Below are positions 1,009 through 35,499 of a stretch of 40,799 bases of DNA, piece by piece. The stretch is taken from positions 1 through 40,799 of the IMG/VR virus record IMGVR_UViG_2698536687_000008; one strand, 5' to 3'. Numbering within the stretch: position 1 is the first letter of the stretch; the number at the start of each line of letters is the position of its first letter. The translations under genes and the position numbers were made by a program. The notes beneath the pieces were generated by a model. That model worked only from the letters and a program-made list of their open reading frames with translations. It ran no database searches and was not told the DNA's origin. The stretch comes from a virus (taxonomy: Duplodnaviria; Heunggongvirae; Uroviricota; Caudoviricetes).

Positions 1009-1083
1009 GTCCTCTTAGTTAAATGGATATAACGAGCCCCTCCTAAGGGCTAATTGCAGGTTCGATTCCTGCAGGGGACACCA
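1009..1083 (+). tRNA. argW: tRNA-Arg (anticodon CCU)
   Basis: 75-nt cloverleaf GTCCTCTTAGTT...GCAGGGGACACCA with anticodon loop CTCCTAA and encoded CCA end; matches argW from memory. Confidence 0.95.
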
Positions 1084-25957: not shown

Positions 25958-26581
25958 CTAACGTGTGACCGCATTCAAAATGTTGTCTGCGATTGACTCT
26001 TCTTTGTGGCATTGCACCACCAGAGCGTCATACAGCGGCTTAACAGTGCGTGACCAGGTGGGTTGGGTAAGGTTTGGGATTAGCATCGTTACAGCGCGAT
26101 ATGCGGCGCTTGCTGGCATTCTTGAATAGCCGACACCTTTGCATCTTCCGCACTCTTTCTCAACAACTCTCCCCCACTGCTCCGTTTTGGCTATATCAAC
26201 CGCACGGCCTGTACCGTGGCAATCTCTGCATCTTGCCCCCGGCGTCGCGGCACTACGGCAATAATCCGCATAAGCGAATGTTGCGAGCACTTGCAGTACC
26301 TTTGCCTTAGTATTTCCTTCAAGCTTTGCCACACCACGGTATTTCCCCGATACCTTGTGTGCAAATTGCATCAGATAGTTGATAGCCTTTTGTTTGTCGT
26401 TCTGGCTGAGTTCGTGCTTACCGCAGAATGCAGCCATACCGAATCCGGCTTGTGATTGCGCCATCCCCATAGCAGCCATCACATCAGTACCGGAAAGAGA
26501 GTCAGAAGCCGTGGCCCGTGGTGAGTCGCTCATCATCGGGCTTTTTGGCGAATGAAATTTAGCTACGCTTTCGAGTCTCAT
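25958..26581 (-). CDS. Q: Late-gene antiterminator Q (lambda-type)
   Basis: 207 aa, MRLESVAKFHSPKSPMMSDSPRATASDSL... with Cys-rich zinc-binding region; near-identical to lambda Q from memory. Confidence 0.95.
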   Translation of the reverse strand: MRLESVAKFHSPKSPMMSDSPRATASDSLSGTDVMAAMGMAQSQAGFGMAAFCGKHELSQNDKQKAINYLMQFAHKVSGKYRGVAKLEGNTKAKVLQVLATFAYADYCRSAATPGARCRDCHGTGRAVDIAKTEQWGRVVEKECGRCKGVGYSRMPASAAYRAVTMLIPNLTQPTWSRTVKPLYDALVVQCHKEESIADNILNAVTR

Positions 26582-27125: not shown

Positions 27126-27412
27126 GGCTTAATCTTCCCCTCCTTCAGTAGTATCGCCTGCGTCCTGATCACGCCTTCGAGGTGGTAAAGTCTGGCGTCT
27201 TTGTTGTCGAGATTATGGGTGCGTCGGTCGATTTCATCGTGACACGCGCTACAAGCCCATGCGCCGATCAGGTCGTCAGGCTTCATTCCCGTTCCGCAAA
27301 TTCCAGCCATCCGGTAATGTGCCAGAACTGTAGTTTCAGGATTACCATTGCATACGCCGTAAATACGTACCTGGCATTCTCTGCCGCGTGCTTCTTTGCG
27401 TAGATTAGCCAT
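27122..27412 (-). CDS. YbcO-like DUF1364 protein (putative metal-binding nuclease)
   Basis: 96 aa with Cys/His ligand pattern (CQVR...CNGNPE...CSACHDEIDRRTH) resembling DLP12 YbcO. Confidence 0.7.
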   Translation of the reverse strand: MANLRKEARGRECQVRIYGVCNGNPETTVLAHYRMAGICGTGMKPDDLIGAWACSACHDEIDRRTHNLDNKDARLYHLEGVIRTQAILLKEGKIKP

Positions 27413-28134
27413 TAAGCAGCCTCCCCTGTTACTTTCAGCATTCCGTTATCGAGCAGCTTTCTGGTCAGCCACTGTTGACCACGCCCGGTGATTTTTGTGG
27501 TGAACGATATCTGTATTCCGTGATTTGTGTTGACCGCTGTTTCTTTCACTGTGAAATAGCCGCGATCCATATATTCCTGCATTGGCACATTGCGCCGGGA
27601 ACCTGAAGCAATAAGGATTTTGTGATCGCGCATCCACGCAAACAGTTTGTTTGGACCAATACCGACAACCTTTGCAAAGTTTCCAATCAAAATTCCGCTG
27701 GCCTCGCCAACGCGATCGGCAAACTCAACTTTAGGTGCGGCAATTGCAAGCTGGTTTTCCAGTTGCATTTTCTGCTCAGCAAGATCAGCAGCAAGGCGCA
27801 ACGCTTCCGGTAGCGTTTTGGGGATATTAACCGCAGCTTCTTCAAGATCTCGCCAGCGGTCAACAAGGCGAGCGGTGAACTCTGGCGACAACTGGGCAAC
27901 AACAACAATACTATCTCGCTTACCTTGTTCGCCTTCGAAGACGTAATGCTCGTACTGAACATTGAACCCTAAGTTATTGATTCTTTCGGAAACCTCAATT
28001 TGAGGAAGCCGGATAACACCATTTTTAGCCAGCGTTTCGATGGTACGTTTCACATTGTCATGACGCTTACCCACCAACTCAGCGATTTCAATGCTTGTCA
28101 TTTTGATGGCATTGCCATTTATTAACTCATTCAT
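27412..28134 (-). CDS. Antirepressor-like protein (Rha/Bro-type N-terminal domain plus KilAC-type C-terminal domain)
   Basis: 240 aa; domain pattern inferred from sequence, not searched. Confidence 0.65.
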   Translation of the reverse strand: MNELINGNAIKMTSIEIAELVGKRHDNVKRTIETLAKNGVIRLPQIEVSERINNLGFNVQYEHYVFEGEQGKRDSIVVVAQLSPEFTARLVDRWRDLEEAAVNIPKTLPEALRLAADLAEQKMQLENQLAIAAPKVEFADRVGEASGILIGNFAKVVGIGPNKLFAWMRDHKILIASGSRRNVPMQEYMDRGYFTVKETAVNTNHGIQISFTTKITGRGQQWLTRKLLDNGMLKVTGEAA

Positions 28135-28476: not shown

Positions 28477-29000
28477 GCCGCCCTCCTGGCGCCCTGTCCG
28501 ATCGCCATCAATGCCGATTTGGATACGGTAGTAAACATCCGTCGAGGACTGATGAACGGTCGCCAAATCAGCAGCATGGAACCTTTGCTGTTTCCCTTCT
28601 TCTCTAGCCCTGTCGATGGTTCGATAAAATTAATCCGTCCATCAGTGATAATACGAACTTCGTCGACACTCTCCAGAGCCTTGCTGAACCATCCGACTGA
28701 CATATCCTCTGGCACAAGCATCACTACCGTCTGTCGCTGTTGTATGCACTGCTCAGCGGCTTTTTCCACCCACGGCCTGATATTGCTGTACGGTGGGTTA
28801 TTCCAGATTGCACCGTGGCTTACCCACTCAGAATTGAGCGCGTCGTCGGCCTCAGTTAGCCAGTGAGCGCACAGAGCATTTTTGTCGCTCGCTGCCGAAT
28901 CCAGACAGAATCCAAACTCAATATCCAGTGCATCAAAAAGCCAAAGCGGCGTTTGCCAGCAGTCCTTGTCGTGTGCTGGCGTATTTGATTTGATAGTCAT
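28473..29000 (-). CDS. Phage N6-adenine DNA methyltransferase (Dam-like, orphan)
   Basis: From [31 protein letters not shown]..., with NPPY catalytic motif ([10 protein letters not shown]); start overlaps NinB stop. Confidence 0.75.
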
Positions 29001-29437
29001 GCAGCCCGATCTCCCCATCGCGCTTTCCATTCGAGAGCCAGTCGCGCTTCGTCTGACCACTTAACGCCACGTTCTGTACCGAATGCCTGTATAAGCTCTA
29101 ATAGCTCCGCAAATTCGTTTACACGCATCCTGCTGGTTGACTGGCCTATTACCACAAAGCCATTCCCGGCAAGGTTAGGAACAACGTCTTGCTGCTTTAA
29201 TGCTGCGGTAAACACACACTTCCAGCTTTCTGCATCCAGCCAGCGACCATGCCATTCAACCTGACGAGAGACGTCACCAAGGCAAGCCCAAAGCTTTCGA
29301 TTCTGGTCTAAGCTGCGGTTGCGTTCCTGAATGGTTACTACGATTGGTTTGGTTGGGTCTGGAAGGATTTGCTGGATAGCTTGAATGGCGTTCTGCTGAT
29401 GGATGGGGCTTCTTAGTTCAAACATTAGTTTCCTCAT
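28997..29437 (-). CDS. ninB: NinB (Orf-family recombination mediator)
   Basis: 146 aa, near-colinear with lambda NinB from memory (…IQERNRSLDQNRKLWACLGDVSRQVEWHGRWLD…). Confidence 0.8.
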   Translation of the reverse strand: MRKLMFELRSPIHQQNAIQAIQQILPDPTKPIVVTIQERNRSLDQNRKLWACLGDVSRQVEWHGRWLDAESWKCVFTAALKQQDVVPNLAGNGFVVIGQSTSRMRVNEFAELLELIQAFGTERGVKWSDEARLALEWKARWGDRAA

Positions 29438-29654
29438 GGGATGAACTCCAGTTTGTGATGTTAAATTCCCATTTAATTACCTTTGCATACCCAATTTTGA
29501 ACCCATCAATACCTATCCACCGCTTGCCACTCCAATAAGCTGTACCACTTTGCTTGAAATGATGTGGATGCCTAGATTGAGTGGTCACAGTTACAGGTAA
29601 ATATGGCTTCGGGTATTCCCCATTCCCTGGATAACCAGATTTAATTTTGCTCAT
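29418..29654 (-). CDS. Hypothetical protein (78 aa)
   Basis: ATG 29654 with RBS GAGGGTA; overlaps NinB start by 20 nt; no recognisable family. Confidence 0.45.
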   Translation of the reverse strand: MSKIKSGYPGNGEYPKPYLPVTVTTQSRHPHHFKQSGTAYWSGKRWIGIDGFKIGYAKVIKWEFNITNWSSSHEETNV

Positions 29655-29977
29655 TGATACCCTCTCTCACTTAGTCGCCTCCACGCTTCGTTAAACTCTT
29701 CTCGAGTTGCGCCGGATTTTCTTTCTTCAAACATCATGCACTCGCTGATGTCTCCCCATGACTTTGGTCGCTTTTCAGCGAACAGGTCATCCCATTCGAA
29801 TACCCAGCGGCCTGATTTTCGGTAGTGGTAAATGGTCAGCCATGTTGTGCAGTTAGCTGGATACCCATAGAGAACTTCGACTTTTTGATCACGGTCTTTA
29901 TGCTTTTTCAGCAGGATAAAGCCAGCAACCAGCGAAGCTCCGGCAAGAATGACGATTGGAATTTGCCAGTCAGCCAC
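29651..29977 (-). CDS. Hypothetical membrane-anchored protein (108 aa, GTG start)
   Basis: Strong RBS GGGGGAGAGGGAAG then GTG; N-terminal TM helix IPIVILAGASLVAGFILL followed by a charged soluble domain. Confidence 0.5.
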   Translation of the reverse strand: MADWQIPIVILAGASLVAGFILLKKHKDRDQKVEVLYGYPANCTTWLTIYHYRKSGRWVFEWDDLFAEKRPKSWGDISECMMFEERKSGATREEFNEAWRRLSERGYQ

Positions 29978-29992
29978 ACTTCCCTCTCCCCC

Positions 29993-30024
29993 AAATAAAA
30001 AGGCCTGCGATTACCAGCAGGCCT
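29993..30024 (-). terminator. tR2-like rho-independent terminator inside the early-right operon
   Basis: Minus strand 8-bp stem AGGCCTGC/GCAGGCCT followed by TTTTTATTTGG; sits between the helicase-proximal ORF and the nin-side genes. Confidence 0.6.
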
Positions 30025-30049
30025 GTTATTAGCTCAGTGATGTAGATGG

Positions 30050-30319
30050 TCATTGCTTCATCTCCCTTTCCATTTCATCAATGTCAACGTCATCAGGAAG
30101 ATGGGAGCAGTACGCCGCTATACCATGATGATTTATCTCATACCCTTTGAACGTTACCATCTGGTGCGTAATCTCAACTTCACTCAGGAATCCGTCATCG
30201 CATAACTGCCTGGCTATTTTCGATTTGGTCTGGATTATTGGTAGTGCCTGTTCTTTCAAAGCGCATGATATTTGTGCATCCCATGCCTTTTCGAGAATGG
30301 CTAATTGTTTTTTATTCAT
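30050..30319 (-). CDS. Hypothetical protein (89 aa) at the lambda ren position
   Basis: ATG overlaps helicase stop (ATGA); no similarity to lambda Ren recognised. Confidence 0.5.
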   Translation of the reverse strand: MNKKQLAILEKAWDAQISCALKEQALPIIQTKSKIARQLCDDGFLSEVEITHQMVTFKGYEINHHGIAAYCSHLPDDVDIDEMEREMKQ

Positions 30320-31755
30320 CAGAATCCTCCTTTCTTCTTGGACTGCGGTTCCTCGCGTTCACGGCGGCGCATTTCAGCAGACTGTTGGTCTGTGTCATAA
30401 ATAGCGCCATTTGCCTGAATGCAATACACCGTGCCGGTATTGCCATGACGATTGAGACGAAGGATTAGTTCAGTTTCACCAGGTGGAACACTGTCATCAA
30501 AAGCGCCTTCACGATGGATCCCGACCCAATAATCGCAATCCTGTTCAATCTGCCCTGTATCTCGTGAGTCACTTGGTAATGGGCGTTTATTGGTTCTGCT
30601 TTCCAGTGCGCGGTTAAGCTGTGTCAGAAGCACAACAACGCAATCAAGCTCTTTGGCAAGATTCTTCAGTCCTTTGGTGATCATGCCGTAAGCAAGGTCG
30701 TTGCGATCGGCCTTCTCAGCGGTCATTAGTGTCAGGTAATCGACCAGAATCATGCCAACACATCCTTTTTCTCGCTTGATTCGACGGCTTTCGCTGACGA
30801 TTTGAGCCAGAGATAATCCCGGCGTGTCGTCGATGTAAAGCAGGTCGATTTCACTCAAGCGATTGGCTGTTTCGATCGCCCTGTTGAAGTCACCATCGTA
30901 ATCACCCTGATAGCCGTCATCAGCGTCATTTGTCGCCGGAAGGTAAAAAATATTCGGGTTAACACCAGACTTCTGCCCTACCAGTTTTTCCAGTATCTGA
31001 TCACCTGGCATTTCAAGGCTGAACATCAAAGCGGGCTTTTTCTCATGCACTGCGCAATTGATTGCCATCTGGCTGTATAGCGTCGTTTTCCCCATCTTAG
31101 GGCGAGCGCCAATGACAAACAGAGAGCCTTTCACCAGACCTTTCGGTGACAGCATCCTGTCCAGCGATGGGATCCCTGTGCTCATTCCTCGTTGTTCGCC
31201 TGACGGGTCAAATCGCTTCTCAAGGTCGCTAACCCAGTCTTCCATGACCTCACCAAATGAGCGAAGGCCGCGACGCGATCCGGTTTTTGCATGGTCTGTC
31301 AGTTGCGTGAAAATCGCCTGAATAGCTTCGTACTTCTGCGTTGCAGTCATTCCGTTGCGGGAATAGAGCAATTCCGTCGCTTCAGTCATGCGGTTGATGG
31401 CGTAGCGTTCCATTGCGGTTTCACGAACCTGCATTGCATAGGCAACGATGTTTGCTGCGCTTGGCGTGTTCTTTGCGATCTCAGCGATATAAGCAAAACC
31501 GCCAACAGACGCCGTTAACGATTTACGCTCCAGTTCATCGAAAAGCGTCAGGCCATCTACTGGCTTTTGCTCCCGGTGCATTCTGGTTATTTCTTCGAAA
31601 AGGATTTTGTGTGGCCGGCTGTAAAATGAGTCAGGCTTCAGCATCGCCAGAACTTTCTGGACGCGCTCACTGCTGTCATCATCCAGAAGCAATCCACCAA
31701 TCACCGCCTGCTCTGCCTCGATGCTATGGGGCGGCGCATAAAAATTATCGGTCAT
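30319..31755 (-). CDS. Replicative DNA helicase, DnaB-like (P22 gene 12 analogue)
   Basis: From ATG 31755 (MTDNFYAPPHSIEAEQAVIGGLL...), Walker A GARPKMGKTT; N- and C-terminal DnaB domains. Confidence 0.9.
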   Translation of the reverse strand: MTDNFYAPPHSIEAEQAVIGGLLLDDDSSERVQKVLAMLKPDSFYSRPHKILFEEITRMHREQKPVDGLTLFDELERKSLTASVGGFAYIAEIAKNTPSAANIVAYAMQVRETAMERYAINRMTEATELLYSRNGMTATQKYEAIQAIFTQLTDHAKTGSRRGLRSFGEVMEDWVSDLEKRFDPSGEQRGMSTGIPSLDRMLSPKGLVKGSLFVIGARPKMGKTTLYSQMAINCAVHEKKPALMFSLEMPGDQILEKLVGQKSGVNPNIFYLPATNDADDGYQGDYDGDFNRAIETANRLSEIDLLYIDDTPGLSLAQIVSESRRIKREKGCVGMILVDYLTLMTAEKADRNDLAYGMITKGLKNLAKELDCVVVLLTQLNRALESRTNKRPLPSDSRDTGQIEQDCDYWVGIHREGAFDDSVPPGETELILRLNRHGNTGTVYCIQANGAIYDTDQQSAEMRRREREEPQSKKKGGF

Positions 31756-32635
31756 CGTGTTCACCCTCACGAACTTTCAGGTAGGTATTGTCGTTAAGCA
31801 GGAAATCAAATCCCTTTTTGTGCCAGACGGTTCCGCGTTGATGGTTTGGACGCTCTTCGAACATCCATCGGCAATTTTCGCCTACGTAGCTCAAATAATT
31901 TCTCCAGTCCTGCATCGTGAACCCATGCCCGTCAAGCTGGCGGGTTATCACTCCGGCTTTGCGCCAGAACGTTCGGATCTGGTTTTTACGCTTGTCATTC
32001 AGTGCGCGGATTCTTGGCGCTTCAGGAAGGATTTCGTGGTAAGCATCGACAACATCCTGACAGCTAACGGAAGGTTTTTTCTTGTCAGACTTTTTGTCTG
32101 CTGTGGCACTCTCTAATACGTCAGTATTAGAGATATTATTTATATTATTGTTTATGGACAACCGTTGGACAACCGTTGGACAATCTCCGCTGAGAGCCGC
32201 TCCATTACTGGTGTTTTCGTTGGACAACCGTTGGACAACCGTTGGACAATTTTTTGCCTGAAAATCGTCATATTTAACGATTGTAAACAGGCTAAATTTC
32301 TTCCCCATCGAGCAAATATTAAGCATACCTTTCGACTCAAAAGTCCGTAATAAGCTCCGAACTTTGTTGTCGGGGATGAATGTTTCTCTGACCAGCGACG
32401 GGCGTCCAGTTATCATCTGACCGCGATCAACAGTTATCGGACCGATATCCGTATTGACGACAGTAGATTCGTGATTAGCCTTGAGGATTAAGTGAAGCCA
32501 AAGATGTACTGCCTGAGAGTCCTTATAGAGCCTGCTGTCCATAAACTGGCGGTGTATAGAGACATACCCCATACTGGATGCCTCCTGATGTTGTACAGGG
32601 TTATGCCTGTAATCAGCTAACTTAACGACGCCCAT
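31745..32635 (-). CDS. Replication initiator protein (lambda O / P22 gp18-like) containing the origin
   Basis: 296 aa; internal iterons translate as repeated CPTVVQRLS; position between cII and helicase. Confidence 0.8.
   Translation of the reverse strand: MGVVKLADYRHNPVQHQEASSMGYVSIHRQFMDSRLYKDSQAVHLWLHLILKANHESTVVNTDIGPITVDRGQMITGRPSLVRETFIPDNKVRSLLRTFESKGMLNICSMGKKFSLFTIVKYDDFQAKNCPTVVQRLSNENTSNGAALSGDCPTVVQRLSINNNINNISNTDVLESATADKKSDKKKPSVSCQDVVDAYHEILPEAPRIRALNDKRKNQIRTFWRKAGVITRQLDGHGFTMQDWRNYLSYVGENCRWMFEERPNHQRGTVWHKKGFDFLLNDNTYLKVREGEHDDR
32163..32254. repeat. Origin iterons: six near-identical copies of TTGGACAACCG in two clusters, with adjacent AT-rich tract (32140-32162)
   Basis: ATGGACAACCGTTGGACAACCGTTGGACAA ... 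CGTTGGACAACCGTTGGACAACCGTTGGACAA, next to ATATTATTTATATTATTGTTTAT. Confidence 0.75.
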
Positions 32636-32789: not shown

Positions 32790-32859
32790 TCCTGTGGATT
32801 GATCCAGTCTTTCTACATCAGGCCTCGAAGAATTCGCCGTTCTTCGGGGCTTTTTCTTT
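32790..32859 (+). ncRNA. OOP-like antisense RNA overlapping the 3' end of cII
   Basis: Plus-strand intrinsic terminator (stem CCTCGAAGAA/TTCTTCGGGG then CTTTTTCTTTT) antisense to the last cII codons, as for lambda OOP; -10-like CATAAT at 32780-32785; 5' end approximate. Confidence 0.4.
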
Positions 32860-33096
32860 TGTCAGCATTCTGGCTACTTTCTTAGCCAGTTCCGCCAACT
32901 CCTCGTCTTCAACACCCCATTCAAGAACAGCCAGAAGCATTCCCATTTTTGGGATGAAGCTATCTTTCCATCGAGAAATTTGCGATTCATTAATCCCTAA
33001 CGCGTCGGCAACCTTTCGCTGACCACGTACAGCAATTCGATTCAGGATGTTGCTTGTAATTGCATTCGCTTTCTTGCGAGTACTTGTAAGTTCCAT
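32818..33096 (-). CDS. cII: Transcriptional activator CII (P22 C1-like)
   Basis: From ATG 33096: MELTSTRKKANAITSNILNRIAVRGQRKVADALGINESQISRWK...MLLAVLEWGV; strong similarity to lambda CII / P22 C1. Confidence 0.85.
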   Translation of the reverse strand: MELTSTRKKANAITSNILNRIAVRGQRKVADALGINESQISRWKDSFIPKMGMLLAVLEWGVEDEELAELAKKVARMLTKEKAPKNGEFFEA

Positions 33097-33127
33097 ATGT
33101 AAGTATTTCCTTAACAAATAAGAAGTT

Positions 33128-33147
33128 ATGCGCATCAACTTATGCGC
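33128..33147 (-). terminator. tR1-like hairpin between cro and cII
   Basis: Minus strand GCGCAT-AAGTTG-ATGCGC hairpin followed by a U-rich stretch, in the position of lambda tR1. Confidence 0.4.
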
Positions 33148-33155
33148 GTTGTATT

Positions 33156-33198
33156 CCCGCATTTCGGCGGGAATGAGGACCATGACTGTTAAAGAGCG
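33156..33198 (-). promoter_or_regulatory. nutR (boxA CGCTCTTTAACA plus boxB CCCGCCGAAATGCGGG)
   Basis: Minus strand boxA matches the rrn/lambda boxA consensus, followed by a boxB hairpin; identical elements recur as nutL. Confidence 0.65.
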
Positions 33199-33505: not shown

Positions 33506-34222
33506 ATGGAAAATAAAAAATCACTGACGACAGAACAGCTGGAAGACGCTAAGCGGCTTAAGGCTTTGTATGAGTCAAAAAAGAAAGAATTGGGGATAAC
33601 CCAATACTCAATCGCTGATGAACTGGGTATCACCCAAGGAGCGGTAGGCCATTATCTTAATGGCAGAAATGCGCTAAACGTTGAGGTTGCATCTGGTTTT
33701 GCACGATTGTTGCAAGTCTCAATTGCTGATTTTAGCCAGTCAATTGCTGCCAAGGTTGCAGAACAGGCAGAAAGCCTTAAGAGCGATGCCAACGTAAGGT
33801 ATGCAGGGGAATACAGAGCAGGAAAGAGGTATCCGGTGTTAAGCAGTATCCAGGCTGGCTCGTGGTGTGAAGCATGCGAACCATACACCATTAAAGACAT
33901 AGATGTTTGGCTTGAGTCTGACGCGCATATTCAAGGTAATGCGTTTTGGCTTAAAGTGGAAGGTGATTCAATGACGGCACCGGTTGGGTTAAGCATTCCA
34001 GAGGGAACATTCGTTCTTTTCGATACCGGAAGGGAGGCGATCAACGGCAGCTTGGTCATAGCAAAACTTTCTGACTCTAACGAAGCAACATTCAAGAAGC
34101 TGATAATCGACGGCGGAAATAAATACCTCAAGGGACTTAACCCTGCATGGCCTCTCGTGCCAATCAATGGAAACTGCAAGATTATAGGCGTTGCAATTGA
34201 GACAAAACTAAGGCTGGTTTGA
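33506..34222 (+). CDS. cI: CI repressor (HTH plus S24 LexA-like autopeptidase domain)
   Basis: 238 aa; N-terminal HTH (QYSIADELGITQGAVGHYLNG) and C-terminal GDSM serine motif; divergent from cro. Confidence 0.9.
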   Translation: MENKKSLTTEQLEDAKRLKALYESKKKELGITQYSIADELGITQGAVGHYLNGRNALNVEVASGFARLLQVSIADFSQSIAAKVAEQAESLKSDANVRYAGEYRAGKRYPVLSSIQAGSWCEACEPYTIKDIDVWLESDAHIQGNAFWLKVEGDSMTAPVGLSIPEGTFVLFDTGREAINGSLVIAKLSDSNEATFKKLIIDGGNKYLKGLNPAWPLVPINGNCKIIGVAIETKLRLV

Positions 34223-34239: not shown

Positions 34240-34608
34240 ATGGTTGGAACCGCTATAGCAAGCTTTTTTGGGATGTTGGCAATCTCGACAATTTACGGCT
34301 TAGCGCATGCTTTTATTGCGAAATCTCTATCAGAAAAAATAAGCCAGGCTTGGGCGCATAGATCAGCTCGTTTCATGATTCTGGTGATCATAGCAATACA
34401 AGGGATATCTGCATTTATCCTCTATGGATCAAGCTTATACCTATTGTATCAAGGCGCGACATTTACGCCTTACACCAGTGATTACGGAACTCTATACGAT
34501 GGTAGTGAAGACATCTCTATGGCTTGGATTGTCTTTGGTTTATCTATGGCCGTGTCTGTTGTAGCAGACATCATTAAGGTAATTCTCGTCTTAACCTTCG
34601 CTGACTAA
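34240..34608 (+). CDS. Small polytopic membrane protein downstream of cI (rex-position moron; candidate exclusion function)
   Basis: ATG 34240 with RBS AAGGGG; about three predicted TM helices; no resemblance to RexB noted. Confidence 0.6.
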   Translation: MVGTAIASFFGMLAISTIYGLAHAFIAKSLSEKISQAWAHRSARFMILVIIAIQGISAFILYGSSLYLLYQGATFTPYTSDYGTLYDGSEDISMAWIVFGLSMAVSVVADIIKVILVLTFAD

Positions 34609-35039: not shown

Positions 35040-35159
35040 ATGTTAGACATCATGACCAACCCAATTCTCGGTGGTTTAGTTACCACATTCGCCATCTGCT
35101 TCGGTTTCACTATCTGGTCTGAAGTAGATGACTGGATGTGGGAACGCAAAAACAAATAA
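35040..35159 (+). CDS. Hypothetical 39-aa single-TM peptide between nutL and N
   Basis: RBS GAGGAACAGAAA then ATG; MLDIMTNPILGGLVTTFAICFGFTIWSEVDDWMWERKNK. Confidence 0.35.
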   Translation: MLDIMTNPILGGLVTTFAICFGFTIWSEVDDWMWERKNK

Positions 35160-35199
35160 TCATCGACACACAAGGATGTGTACCTTCCCGGAGGTCAAC

Positions 35200-35499
35200 A
35201 TGACAGTAGTCATTACATATCTGGCTGACGATAACGCCAGAAATCGCCGCAGAGCACGCAGACAGGCTCAACGTGAGCAGGCAATGCAAGAGCAGCGACT
35301 GGCGCGAAAAATTGCGCTAAAGCTCTCTGGTTGCGTCAGAGCAGACAAAGCAGCATCACTAGGAAGCCTTCGCTGCAAGAAGGCAGAAGAAGTCGAGCGT
35401 AAACAGAACCGTATTTACTACAGCAAGCCACGCAGTGAAATGGGTGTGACTTGTGTTGGTCGCCAGAAAATGAAATTAGGCAGCAAACCACTTATTTGA
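35200..35499 (+). CDS. N: Antitermination protein N
   Basis: ATG 35200 after GGAGG; arginine-rich motif NARNRRRARRQAQREQ; C-terminus ERKQNRIYYSKP...CVGRQKMKLGSKPLI parallels lambda N. Confidence 0.8.
   Translation: MTVVITYLADDNARNRRRARRQAQREQAMQEQRLARKIALKLSGCVRADKAASLGSLRCKKAEEVERKQNRIYYSKPRSEMGVTCVGRQKMKLGSKPLI

What the first reader, a model, noticed from the sequence alone, without database searches (positions are those of the whole stretch)
29418..30319. Three unknown ORFs and an intrinsic terminator at the ren position between helicase and NinB
Where lambda carries ren, this prophage has an 89-aa ORF coupled to the helicase stop, a strong tR2-like terminator with a possible 27-aa hydrophobic ORF overlapping it, a 108-aa membrane-anchored protein started by GTG behind a very strong RBS, and a 78-aa ORF overlapping NinB. 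None matches a family I recognise. The P-to-nin junction is a known moron hotspot, and the terminator-then-strong-RBS arrangement suggests expression independent of N antitermination.
Basis: inference. Interest (0 to 1): 0.45.

Follow-up and report, generated by a model that had tools for sequence, protein, structure and literature searches.

The report
Ordinary lambdoid ren–tR2–ninB gene junction
This is the normal, mosaic junction between the replication genes and the nin genes of a P22/lambda-like prophage. It holds lambda's own tR2 terminator and NinA mini-gene, flanked by three small, real but uncharacterised phage genes that belong to the lytic early operon and are not independently expressed 'morons'.

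Summary

- **The terminator is lambda tR2 itself.** A 76-nt block (29978-30053) matches the lambda ren–ninB spacer at all but one base. It holds the NinA mini-ORF, the tR2 hairpin with its U-tract, and the ninB Shine-Dalgarno sequence. The "27-aa ORF" is therefore NinA, and the "very strong RBS" is the ninB ribosome-binding site, reused here by ORF108.
- **All the ORFs are already catalogued.** They match PHROG families of unknown function and are annotated in published phages: Sf6 gp45 and gp46, BTP1 gp44, ST104 ORF30.
- **New here:**
  - ORF108 is a membrane-anchored protein with no detectable fold relative. Its homologues also occur in virulent-type phages.
  - ORF78 is a real gene (dN/dS 0.15) that PGAP does not annotate.
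- **The moron reading is not supported.** No promoter lies between tR2 and ORF108. The genes are chained by overlapping stop and start codons. The BTP1 homologue of ORF89 is silent in lysogen RNA-seq (TPM ≤10).

The site is a mosaic hotspot, but its expression should depend on N antitermination, not escape it. Functions remain unknown. Interest is low.

The parts
30319..31770 (-). DnaB-like replicative helicase (context); its TGA shares one base with the ORF89 ATG
   Evidence: Pfam DnaB_C 3e-60 and DnaB 3.5e-31; PHROG 19
30050..30319 (-). ORF89: small acidic winged-helix protein in the ren slot (PHROG 2239; equals BTP1 gp44 and ST104 ORF30)
29970..30053 (-). NinA mini-ORF (27 aa, hydrophobic); the tR2 hairpin lies inside it
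   Evidence: PHROG 5907 1.8e-19. Identical to the lambda ren-ninB spacer and to Sf6 gene 45 ('similar to phage 21 NinA'). NinA translation start described as 'not weak' in PMC4824070.
29993..30024 (-). Lambda tR2 intrinsic terminator: stem-loop 30001-30024 and U-tract 29993-30000
   Evidence: Terminator scan. Base-for-base identity with lambda and with the Sf6 feature annotated 'terminator, homology to lambda tR2'. Hairpin -15.7 kcal/mol.
29978..30053 (-). 76-nt conserved 'boundary sequence' (NinA + tR2 + ninB-type ribosome-binding site), the mosaic joint
   Evidence: One mismatch to lambda over 76 nt. Annotated as bsq6 in Sf6. The exact 48-mer occurs in at least 120 IMG/VR stretches.
29978..29992 (-). 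Shine-Dalgarno region GGGGGAGAGGGAAGT: the lambda ninB ribosome-binding site, serving ORF108 here
   Evidence: In lambda the same 15-mer is followed by C-ATG of ninB.
29651..29977 (-). ORF108: bitopic membrane protein (TM about residues 5-27, basic stretch after it, conserved ~75-aa C-terminal domain); equals Sf6 gp46, PHROG 5903
29418..29654 (-). ORF78: small basic protein (PHROG 29435). Conserved core is residues 4-62; the C-terminal tail is the ninB-overlap linker.
   Evidence: PHROG 7.2e-57. dN/dS 0.15 against the Enterobacter homologue, which sits in the same pre-ninB slot. 53% identical core in Klebsiella phage VLCpiS13c gp65. Shares only the SHEETNV tail with Sf6 gp49.
28997..29437 (-). 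NinB/Orf recombination mediator (context)
   Evidence: Pfam NinB 5.2e-54

Best explanation
The region is the ren/NinA-tR2/ninB joint of the rightward early (pR-type) operon of a P22/Sf6-like lambdoid prophage of E. coli.

**Shown**
- A 76-nt block essentially identical to lambda carries the NinA mini-ORF, the tR2 terminator and the ninB ribosome-binding site.
- This block is a recombination 'boundary sequence'. Different gene cassettes have been exchanged on either side of it.
- Here ORF89 lies upstream, in the ren slot and translationally coupled to the helicase.
- A 540-nt cassette, ORF108 plus ORF78, lies downstream. ORF108 has taken over the ninB ribosome-binding site, and ORF78 is overlap-coupled to ninB.

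**Inferred from lambda biology and the absence of any promoter**
- ORF89 is made together with the replication proteins after induction.
- ORF108, ORF78 and the rest of the nin genes are delayed-early lytic genes. They are reached only when the N-like antiterminator carries RNA polymerase through tR2.
- None of them is a lysogeny-expressed moron.

**Protein-level inference, much less certain**
- ORF89 is an acidic winged-helix domain. It is more likely to bind a protein partner, or to act as a non-canonical nucleic-acid binder, than to be a classical repressor.
- ORF108 is an N-out/C-in inner-membrane-tethered protein. Its conserved cytoplasmic domain probably binds a host or competitor factor at the membrane during lytic growth, in host takeover, counter-defence or exclusion (my estimate about 0.35).
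- ORF78 is a small basic accessory protein.
- All three are dispensable accessories. Near-identical helicases and NinB genes function without them in Sf6 and lambda-type contigs.
For: - **Identity with lambda tR2, NinA and the ninB RBS:**. Sf6 annotation of the same block as gene 45 (NinA-like), tR2 and bsq6, with gene 46 equal to ORF108.
- **Coupling:** overlapping stop/start codons throughout. The nin-region ATGA chains are described in PMC8022706.
- **Survey of 80 IMG/VR contigs:** NinB abuts the block in 61 of 78. Inserts are present in 17, and four of these carry the same 540-nt cassette. ORF108 is the first gene in 10 of the 17 inserts. The upstream gene varies, and in the 77 contigs where the NinA start could be located its stop always overlaps or abuts that ATG.
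- **No promoter**.
- **tR2 efficiency** is about 0.9 and is lowered only about 10% by NinA translation (PMC4824070).
- **Antiterminators are present:** N-like and Q-like.
- **Lysogen RNA-seq:** the BTP1 homologue of ORF89 and the first post-tR2 gene of BTP1 are at TPM <=10.5 in lysogen RNA-seq, like O and P. The five genes highly expressed in lysogeny are elsewhere.
- **ORF108 relatives in other phage types:** DNA-polymerase-A contigs, a Shuimuvirus, a T5-sized phage and the jumbo phage Goslar.
- **ORF78 relative** in a Klebsiella siphophage.
- **Folds and charges:**
- **Dispensability:** the same 483-aa helicase abuts NinA directly in Sf6-type contigs.
Against: - No expression data exist for this prophage or for ORF108 and ORF78. 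N-dependence is extrapolated from lambda.
- G+C dips slightly over the three ORFs (42-48% against about 50% in the flanks), as can happen with acquired cargo.
- The promoter scan only recognises sigma-70 consensus sites.
- The functional guesses for the three proteins rest on fold, charge, topology rules and gene neighbourhood. No homologue has been characterised.
- Some ORF108 relatives lack the membrane helix, so membrane tethering is not essential to the domain.
Confidence: 0.8

Rival explanations
1. One reading: the ORFs are morons, that is, cargo expressed from the repressed prophage independently of N antitermination, for example to defend the lysogen.
For: The site is a variable hotspot. 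G+C dips slightly. ORF108 is membrane-anchored, like many exclusion proteins.
Against: - There is no promoter and no private terminator.
- The RBS and terminator are lambda's own.
- Stops and starts overlap with the helicase and with ninB.
- The BTP1 ORF89 homologue and the BTP1 post-tR2 gene are silent in the lysogen.
- PADLOC finds nothing.
- ORF108 and ORF78 relatives occur in phages that look virulent.
Confidence: 0.07
2. ORF89 is a functional analogue of lambda Ren: a winged-helix protein in the ren slot that protects the developing phage from exclusion by a resident prophage system (Rex-type).
For: - Same slot, similar size (89 against 96 aa), and the same ATGA coupling into NinA.
- Lambda Ren matches a MarR-type PHROG over residues 1-65, so both are winged-helix proteins.
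Against: - No detectable sequence relationship (hhalign probability below 1%; no PHROG 142 hit).
- Opposite charge: pI 5.2 against 9.9.
- In an Intestinirhabdus prophage the ORF89 homologue sits next to a Ren-like tandem winged-helix gene, so it adds to Ren and does not replace it.
Confidence: 0.15
3. ORF108 is a replication accessory that tethers or organises phage DNA replication at the inner membrane, working like phi29 p16.7 or p1.
For: - N-terminal membrane helix plus a cytoplasmic domain.
- Recurrent placement beside replication genes in unrelated phages: after the helicase in lambdoid phages, between primase and helicase in IME207, and after DNA polymerase A in metagenomic phage contigs.
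Against: - In Goslar it sits next to PhuZ, and in the T5-sized phage among early hypothetical genes.
- Several relatives lack the membrane helix.
- No fold similarity to any DNA-binding or replication protein.
- The soluble domain is slightly acidic.
- It is dispensable in lambda and in most contigs.
Confidence: 0.12
4. ORF78 and/or the 27-aa ORF are not genes, only open frames created by neighbouring constraints.
For: - PGAP annotates neither in the 98.6%-identical E. coli JNE131328 locus.
- ORF78 has only four protein clusters.
- The NinA sequence is constrained anyway by the terminator.
Against: - ORF78: dN/dS 0.15, with 29 of 51 differences at third codon positions; it keeps its position in Enterobacter; a 53% identical core occurs in a Klebsiella phage.
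- NinA: substitutions seen among contigs are synonymous or conservative (I to V, M or A). A diverged Intestinirhabdus version keeps exactly 27 codons, the ATGA coupling and the hairpin through different bases. Translation is reported in lambda.
Confidence: 0.05

Closest known systems
Phage lambda ren – ninA/tR2 – ninB junction (nin5 region)
   Same: - A 76-nt block holding NinA, the tR2 hairpin with its U-tract and the ninB Shine-Dalgarno sequence, identical but for one base.
- The upstream gene's stop overlaps the NinA ATG.
- Same position between the replication genes and ninB.
   Different: - Lambda has Ren upstream, and ninB starts one base after the block.
- Here ORF89 replaces Ren, and a 540-nt cassette (ORF108 + ORF78) is inserted before ninB.
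- The first gene after the block starts with GTG instead of ATG.
Shigella phage Sf6 genes 44-50 (annotated: gene 45 NinA-like, tR2, boundary sequence bsq6, gene 46)
   Same: - The same type of 483-aa DnaB-like helicase.
- The same boundary block.
- Gene 46 is the 108-aa ORF108 protein, in the same first slot after tR2.
   Different: - Sf6 has no ORF89; its helicase stop abuts NinA directly.
- Sf6 carries genes 47, 48 and 49 where this window has ORF78.
- Sf6 gp49 shares only the seven C-terminal residues, which are imposed by the ninB overlap.
Lambda Ren (PHROG 142, 'Ren-like exclusion protein')
   Same: Same slot, similar size, same coupling to NinA, and a winged-helix architecture.
   Different: No sequence homology. 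ORF89 is acidic and Ren is strongly basic. ORF89 can co-occur with Ren-like genes. Function was not tested.
MarR/PadR-type winged helix-turn-helix regulators
   Different: - No Pfam or PDB sequence match.
- Only 89 aa, so it lacks the MarR dimerisation helices.
- Net negative charge and an acidic C-terminal tail.
- There is a loop where helix 2 would be.
Phi29 p16.7/p1 and T4 Imm/Sp (small early membrane-anchored phage proteins; comparison from my own knowledge)
   Same: ORF108 is likewise a roughly 100-aa early-operon protein with one N-terminal membrane helix and a soluble domain.
   Different: No sequence or fold similarity was detected to any solved structure. ORF108's domain is predicted to be cytoplasmic and beta-rich. 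The analogy is functional speculation only.

Membership tests
Lambda tR2 intrinsic terminator | G+C-rich hairpin followed by a U-tract, with sequence identity to lambda tR2 | tested here: met
   8-bp stem (6 G-C) plus TTTTATTT. Identical to lambda and to the Sf6 tR2 feature. -15.7 kcal/mol.
Lambda tR2 intrinsic terminator | Location between the replication/ren genes and ninB in the rightward early operon | tested here: met
   Order on the minus strand: CII, O-like, helicase, ORF89, tR2..., NinB..., Q-like.
Lambda tR2 intrinsic terminator | Terminates transcription in vivo and is overridden by N | not testable with these tools
   Known for lambda tR2 (termination efficiency about 0.9; PMC4824070). 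An N-like gene is present. No data for this prophage.
NinA mini-protein (PHROG 5907) | 26-27-codon hydrophobic ORF whose ATG overlaps the upstream stop and which contains tR2 | tested here: met
   PHROG 1.8e-19. ATGA overlap. Peptide identical to lambda NinA except for the last residues.
Moron (independent transcription unit expressed from the prophage) | Own promoter upstream of the gene | tested here: not met
   13 nt lie between the U-tract and the GTG. The only sigma-70-like hit lies upstream of tR2 and is below chance expectation.
Moron (independent transcription unit expressed from the prophage) | Own terminator downstream | tested here: not met
   ORF78 overlaps ninB by 20 nt. The only other terminator-like hit in 28900-30900 is a weak 5-bp stem inside the ORF108 coding sequence (29921-29933); none lies between ORF108/ORF78 and ninB.
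Moron (independent transcription unit expressed from the prophage) | Expressed during lysogeny | tested here: inconclusive
   Only tested by proxy. The BTP1 homologue of ORF89 has TPM 1.6-9.9, and the BTP1 post-tR2 gene 1.2-10.5, which the authors class as not expressed. There are no data for ORF108 or ORF78.
Moron (independent transcription unit expressed from the prophage) | Base composition distinct from neighbours | tested here: inconclusive
   G+C 42-48% against about 50% in the flanks. The dip is small.
Ren family (PHROG 142) | Sequence homology to lambda Ren | tested here: not met
   hhalign probability 0.3-0.7%. No PHROG 142 or 1687 hit at E<=0.1.
Ren family (PHROG 142) | Confers escape from Rex exclusion | not testable with these tools
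   Requires plating assays.
MarR/PadR winged-helix transcription factors | Winged helix-turn-helix fold | tested here: met
MarR/PadR winged-helix transcription factors | Family sequence signature and dimerisation helices | tested here: not met
   No Pfam MarR or PadR hit at E<=1. No PDB sequence hit. Only 89 aa.
PHROG 2239 / 5903 / 29435 (phage protein families of unknown function) | Full-length profile match | tested here: met
   2e-62, 5.6e-75 and 7.2e-57, each covering the whole profile.
Known anti-phage defence proteins (PADLOC) | Profile match to any defence-system component | tested here: not met
   No hit at E<=1 for any of the four ORFs.

The most novel reading that the evidence does not exclude
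ORF108 (Sf6 gp46 family) could be an unrecognised phage effector with a new small fold. A cytoplasmic ~75-aa domain (invariant YGYP…T.YH.R…EW..LF…R), usually tethered to the inner membrane, is shared by temperate lambdoid phages and by unrelated phages that look virulent (a Shuimuvirus, a T5-sized phage, DNA-polymerase-A contigs, the nucleus-forming jumbo phage Goslar). It might neutralise a conserved host or defence factor, or organise replication at the membrane. ORF89 could similarly be a new acidic winged-helix counter-exclusion factor of the ren slot.
Probability: 0.25. Interest if true: 0.45.

Novelty: already known. Interest (0 to 1): 0.15.

Why it matters
The practical value is corrective.

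- **The motif is lambda's own.** A terminator followed by a strong ribosome-binding site at this position is the conserved lambda tR2/ninB leader. It should not be read as a sign of autonomous cargo.
- **The junction is a recombination joint.** Small lytic accessory genes are swapped on either side of it.
- **Three modest leads remain:**
  - ORF89 now has a fold, an acidic winged helix.
  - The ORF108 family is a well-conserved membrane-tethered domain with no fold relative. It spans temperate and virulent-type phages, which makes it a reasonable candidate for a functional screen.
  - ORF78 is a real gene that standard annotation misses.

None of this is surprising to a lambdoid-phage specialist.

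Tried and rejected
- **Family and defence libraries:** Pfam, NCBIfam and PADLOC found nothing for any of the four ORFs.
- **PDB by sequence:** profiles of ORF89 and ORF108 and the single ORF78 sequence gave nothing below E = 0.1.
- **ORF108 profile search of 1.84 billion representatives:** 36 hits, all but two of them small proteins. The two long hits are a repetitive 380-aa sequence and a 3904-aa protein matched only in short repeated stretches, both judged spurious. There are no informative fusions.
- **ORF89 against Ren:** hhalign against lambda Ren, a Ren family alignment, and the 150-aa Ren-like tandem winged-helix proteins showed no relationship.
- **ORF78 against Sf6 gp49:** only the ninB-overlap tail is shared. 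The neighbour of the Klebsiella ORF78 homologue is unrelated to the neighbour in Enterobacter.
- **Rfam scan of the whole window:** only one tRNA.
- **Literature by accession number:** no papers. The lambda ribosome-profiling paper is not held.
- **Ideas I considered and dropped, from inspection only:** a clamp-binding or SSB-tail-like reading of the EWDDLF motif, because it lies at the end of a predicted strand and lacks the consensus; and NinA translation as an attenuator of tR2, because published data show only about a 10% effect.
Full report
**Anatomy**

All relevant genes run on the minus strand. The order is:

| Feature | Coordinates | Note |
|---|---|---|
| CII-like gene | 32818-33183 | |
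| O-like initiator | 31745-32635 | |
| DnaB-like helicase | 30319-31770 | Pfam DnaB_C 3e-60 |
| ORF89 | 30050-30319 | |
| 27-codon hydrophobic ORF | 29970-30053 | |
| Intrinsic terminator | stem-loop 30001-30024, U-tract 29993-30000 | |
| ORF108 | 29651-29977 | GTG start |
| ORF78 | 29418-29654 | |
| NinB | 28997-29437 | |
| Dam-type methyltransferase, NinF, KilAC/Rha antirepressor-like gene, DUF1364, RusA | | |
| Q-type antiterminator | 25958-26581 | |

These assignments rest. An S24 repressor (33506-34222, plus strand) and an N-like arginine-rich antiterminator (35128-35499, PHROG 271, 6.8e-38) complete a standard lambdoid control region.

A tRNA-Arg(CCT) lies at 1009-1083, and the best nucleotide match in the phage collection is Sf6. 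The element therefore looks like a P22/Sf6-like prophage of E. coli.

Junctions are tight:
- helicase to ORF89: TGATG
- ORF89 to the 27-aa ORF: ATGA
- ORF108 to ORF78: ATGA
- ORF78 into NinB: a 20-nt overlap

**The terminator, the mini-ORF and the 'strong RBS' are lambda's own**

I aligned the minus strand with the lambda ren–ninB spacer and with Sf6. A 76-nt block (29978-30053) is identical in all three except for one position. It runs from the ATG of the mini-ORF, through CAGGCCTGC-TGGTAATC-GCAGGCCT-TTTTATTT, to GGGGGAGAGGGAAGT.

In lambda that last 15-mer is followed by C-ATG, the start of ninB. In Sf6 the published annotation calls the block 'gene 45, similar to phage 21 NinA', 'terminator, homology to lambda tR2' and 'boundary sequence bsq6'. 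The next gene, 46, is the 108-aa protein.

The possible 27-aa ORF is NinA (PHROG 5907, 1.8e-19). The very strong RBS is the ninB ribosome-binding site, reused by ORF108. An in-frame TAA in the hairpin loop means GTG 29977 is the first possible start, as annotated in Sf6 and by PGAP.

The literature treats this unit as well studied:
- The nin region (ren to Q) contains ninA-ninH, packed by ATGA overlaps (PMC8022706).
- tR2 lies 30 bp after the NinA AUG and 16 bp before its stop. The NinA start is 'not weak'.
- tR2 terminates about 90% of transcripts, and NinA translation lowers this by only about 10% (PMC4824070).

**A mosaic joint, not a private expression unit**

I scanned IMG/VR for the exact 48-mer (tR2 plus RBS) and analysed 80 contigs.

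Downstream of the block:
- NinB starts one base after it, as in lambda, in 61 of 78 informative contigs.
- 17 contigs carry inserts of 269-1036 nt.
- Four contigs carry the same 540-nt ORF108 + ORF78 insert as this window.
- ORF108 is the first gene in 10 of the 17 inserts. It always uses the shared RBS and GTG, and is followed either by ORF78 or by Sf6 gp47/48-type genes.

Upstream of the block the gene is one of: Ren (96 aa), a second Ren type, ORF89 (three cases including the window), or a replication helicase directly (483-aa DnaB, 458-aa DnaB, or 626-aa Toprim type). In the 77 contigs where the NinA start could be located, the upstream stop overlaps or abuts the NinA ATG.

What is exchanged are promoterless cassettes that plug into the operon's translational chain.

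The exact four-part combination is rare. Only one of 5,426 complete E. coli genomes covers at least 80% of the query. The modules are common individually, with matches in 2,076 genomes.

**Expression**

- Only 13 nt separate the U-tract from the ORF108 start.
- The one sigma-70-like hit in 2 kb lies inside ORF89, upstream of tR2, and is fewer than chance expectation (1 found, 2.6 expected).
- No terminator follows the cassette.
- Rfam finds nothing here.

The BTP1 prophage gene STMMW_03582 (gp44, 95.5% identical to ORF89) has TPM 1.6-9.9 in all conditions listed in Table S5 of PMC7067206. That is at or below the authors' threshold of 10 for 'not expressed', and indistinguishable from the adjacent helicase (0.9-8.9). 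The first post-tR2 gene of BTP1 is at 1.2-10.5. The genes highly expressed in that lysogen are bstA, cI, pid, gtrC and gtrA.

This is proxy evidence. ORF108 and ORF78 have no expression data.

**ORF89**

- **Distribution:** PHROG 2239 (2e-62). There are 25 protein clusters down to about 55% identity in Escherichia, Salmonella, Erwinia, Enterobacter and Intestinirhabdus. It is present in 115 phage records, all but one Escherichia or Salmonella lambdoid phages (Stx phages, BTP1, mEpX2, ST104-like). The annotated rows shown name a helicase or P feature under the edge of the match, except the Cronobacter phage.
- **Not a MarR member:** there is no Pfam or PDB sequence hit. The protein is too short for the dimerisation helices.
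- **Charge:** it is acidic (pI 5.2, net -5), with an acidic tail DDVDIDEMEREM.
- **Relation to Ren:** lambda Ren also turns out to be winged-helix-like. It matches a MarR-type PHROG over residues 1-65 at 1.5e-10. But Ren is strongly basic (pI 9.9) and unrelated in sequence.
- **Co-occurrence with Ren-like genes:** in an Intestinirhabdus prophage the ORF89 homologue follows a Ren-like tandem winged-helix gene. ORF89 is therefore an additional module and not a Ren replacement.
- **Dispensability:** the same 483-aa helicase abuts NinA directly in Sf6-type contigs, so ORF89 is not an obligatory replication factor.

**ORF108**

- **Family:** PHROG 5903, equal to Sf6 gp46. There are 58 clusters. The alignment shows a variable N-terminal hydrophobic helix followed by a strongly conserved domain with 13 invariant residues: Y37 G38 Y39 P40 T48 Y50 H51 R53 E61 W62 L65 F66 R70.
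- **Topology:** acidic residues precede the helix and a KKHKDRDQK stretch follows it. By the positive-inside rule this predicts N-out/C-in. That is inference.
- **Structure:** the model (pLDDT 87.8) has a helix at residues 5-27, four strands and a C-terminal helix.
- **No informative fusions:** a profile search of 1.84 billion representatives finds only 36 proteins. All but two are 73-133 aa, and the two long ones look spurious. Some distant members carry C…H and CxxC knuckles in place of the membrane helix.
- **Contexts outside lambdoid phages:**
  - after DNA polymerase A and an HNH gene in 25-73-kb phage contigs
  - between primase and helicase in the Shuimuvirus IME207
  - among early hypothetical genes of a 112-kb phage
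  - next to PhuZ in the jumbo phage Goslar

Presence in such phages argues for a role in lytic growth and against lysogenic conversion. Adjacency to replication genes recurs but is not universal.

**ORF78**

- **Family:** PHROG 29435, with only four protein clusters. PGAP does not annotate it in the 98.6%-identical E. coli JNE131328 locus.
- **It is a real gene.** Against an Enterobacter ludwigii prophage homologue (77% amino-acid and 78.5% nucleotide identity, same slot overlapping ninB), dN/dS is 0.15 in frame and about 1.3 in the other two frames. 29 of 51 differences fall at third codon positions.
- **Conserved core:** residues 4-62 are 53% identical to gp65 of Klebsiella phage VLCpiS13c, which sits in a small cassette with a DNA methyltransferase.
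- **C-terminal tail:** the tail (…SHEETNV) is dictated by the overlap with the ninB start. That is why Sf6 gp49 shares just those seven residues.

**Verdict**

The architecture is already known, from lambda (1982 onwards) and from the Sf6 annotation. The ORFs are catalogued hypothetical proteins.

What this analysis adds:
- the identification of the block as lambda tR2, NinA and the ninB RBS
- a quantified picture of cassette exchange around the block
- a winged-helix fold for ORF89
- evidence that the ORF108 and ORF78 families extend to virulent-type phages
- evidence that ORF78 is a missed but genuine gene

The functions of the three proteins remain unknown. My best guess is that they are lytic-cycle accessory factors that bind host or competitor components. 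Interest is low (0.15).

Noticed in passing
L135:2140-2275 (E. coli JNE120393); proteins P0001, P0003, P0004 and others of 133-134 aa: In a minority of genomes a one-base net change in the U-tract/G-run (TTTTATTTTGGGG-GGGGGAGG) puts NinA in frame with ORF108. The result is a 133-aa ORF with two hydrophobic helices and the intact tR2 hairpin inside it. Roughly a dozen members carry this, against about 640 members in the 108-aa clusters. It could be a gene-caller artefact, a homopolymer sequencing error or a real fusion.
   Followed up: partly
L006:4273-4356 (Intestinirhabdus prophage): A diverged NinA-like ORF has exactly 27 codons and the same ATGA coupling to the ORF89 homologue. Its terminator hairpin is kept through different bases (-14.8 against -15.7 kcal/mol), and 10 of the first 21 residues are identical. 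The peptide-plus-terminator unit is therefore conserved beyond the near-identical lambda block, which suggests selection on both the RNA and the peptide.
   Followed up: partly
window 29418-29654 (-); L002:3119-3355: ORF78 is under purifying selection but is left unannotated by PGAP in the 98.6%-identical RefSeq locus. It is a small gene missed by standard annotation.
   Followed up: yes
window 34240-34608 (+): A 122-129-aa protein with multiple hydrophobic segments (PHROG 6534, unknown function) starts just after the stop of the cI-type repressor, on the same strand. Lambda rexAB and BTP1 bstA occupy this position. It is a better candidate for a lysogeny-expressed exclusion or defence gene than the ORFs of the finding.
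   Followed up: no
L003:1781-2071 (lambda ren); L004:4093-4545; L006:3549-4004: Lambda Ren matches a MarR-type PHROG (1.5e-10) over residues 1-65, so it looks like a winged-helix protein. The 150-aa genes after the helicase in Enterobacter and Intestinirhabdus prophages align with Ren at both ends and look like tandem winged-helix versions of it.
   Followed up: partly
window 28997-29060 (-): The mechanical ORF for the Dam-type methyltransferase starts at GTG 29060 and overlaps NinB by 64 nt. An ATG at 29000 forms an ATGA overlap with the NinB stop and is the more likely start, which fits the nin-region chain of coupled genes.
   Followed up: no
window 27412-28134 (-): A KilAC/Rha-type antirepressor-like gene (Pfam ANT 7.7e-33, Phage_pRha) sits inside the nin region between NinF and DUF1364/RusA.
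   Followed up: no
window 1009-1083 (+): tRNA-Arg (anticodon CCT) lies near the left end of the window. It may be the prophage attachment site, as for Sf6-like phages (from my own knowledge, not tested).
   Followed up: no
proteins P0097, P0100, P0103, P0105, P0110, P0115: Distant members of the ORF108 family lack the membrane helix and instead carry C-x4-H and C-x2-C motifs flanking the first strands. This suggests an ancestral zinc-ribbon-like version of the domain that the window's protein has lost.
   Followed up: no
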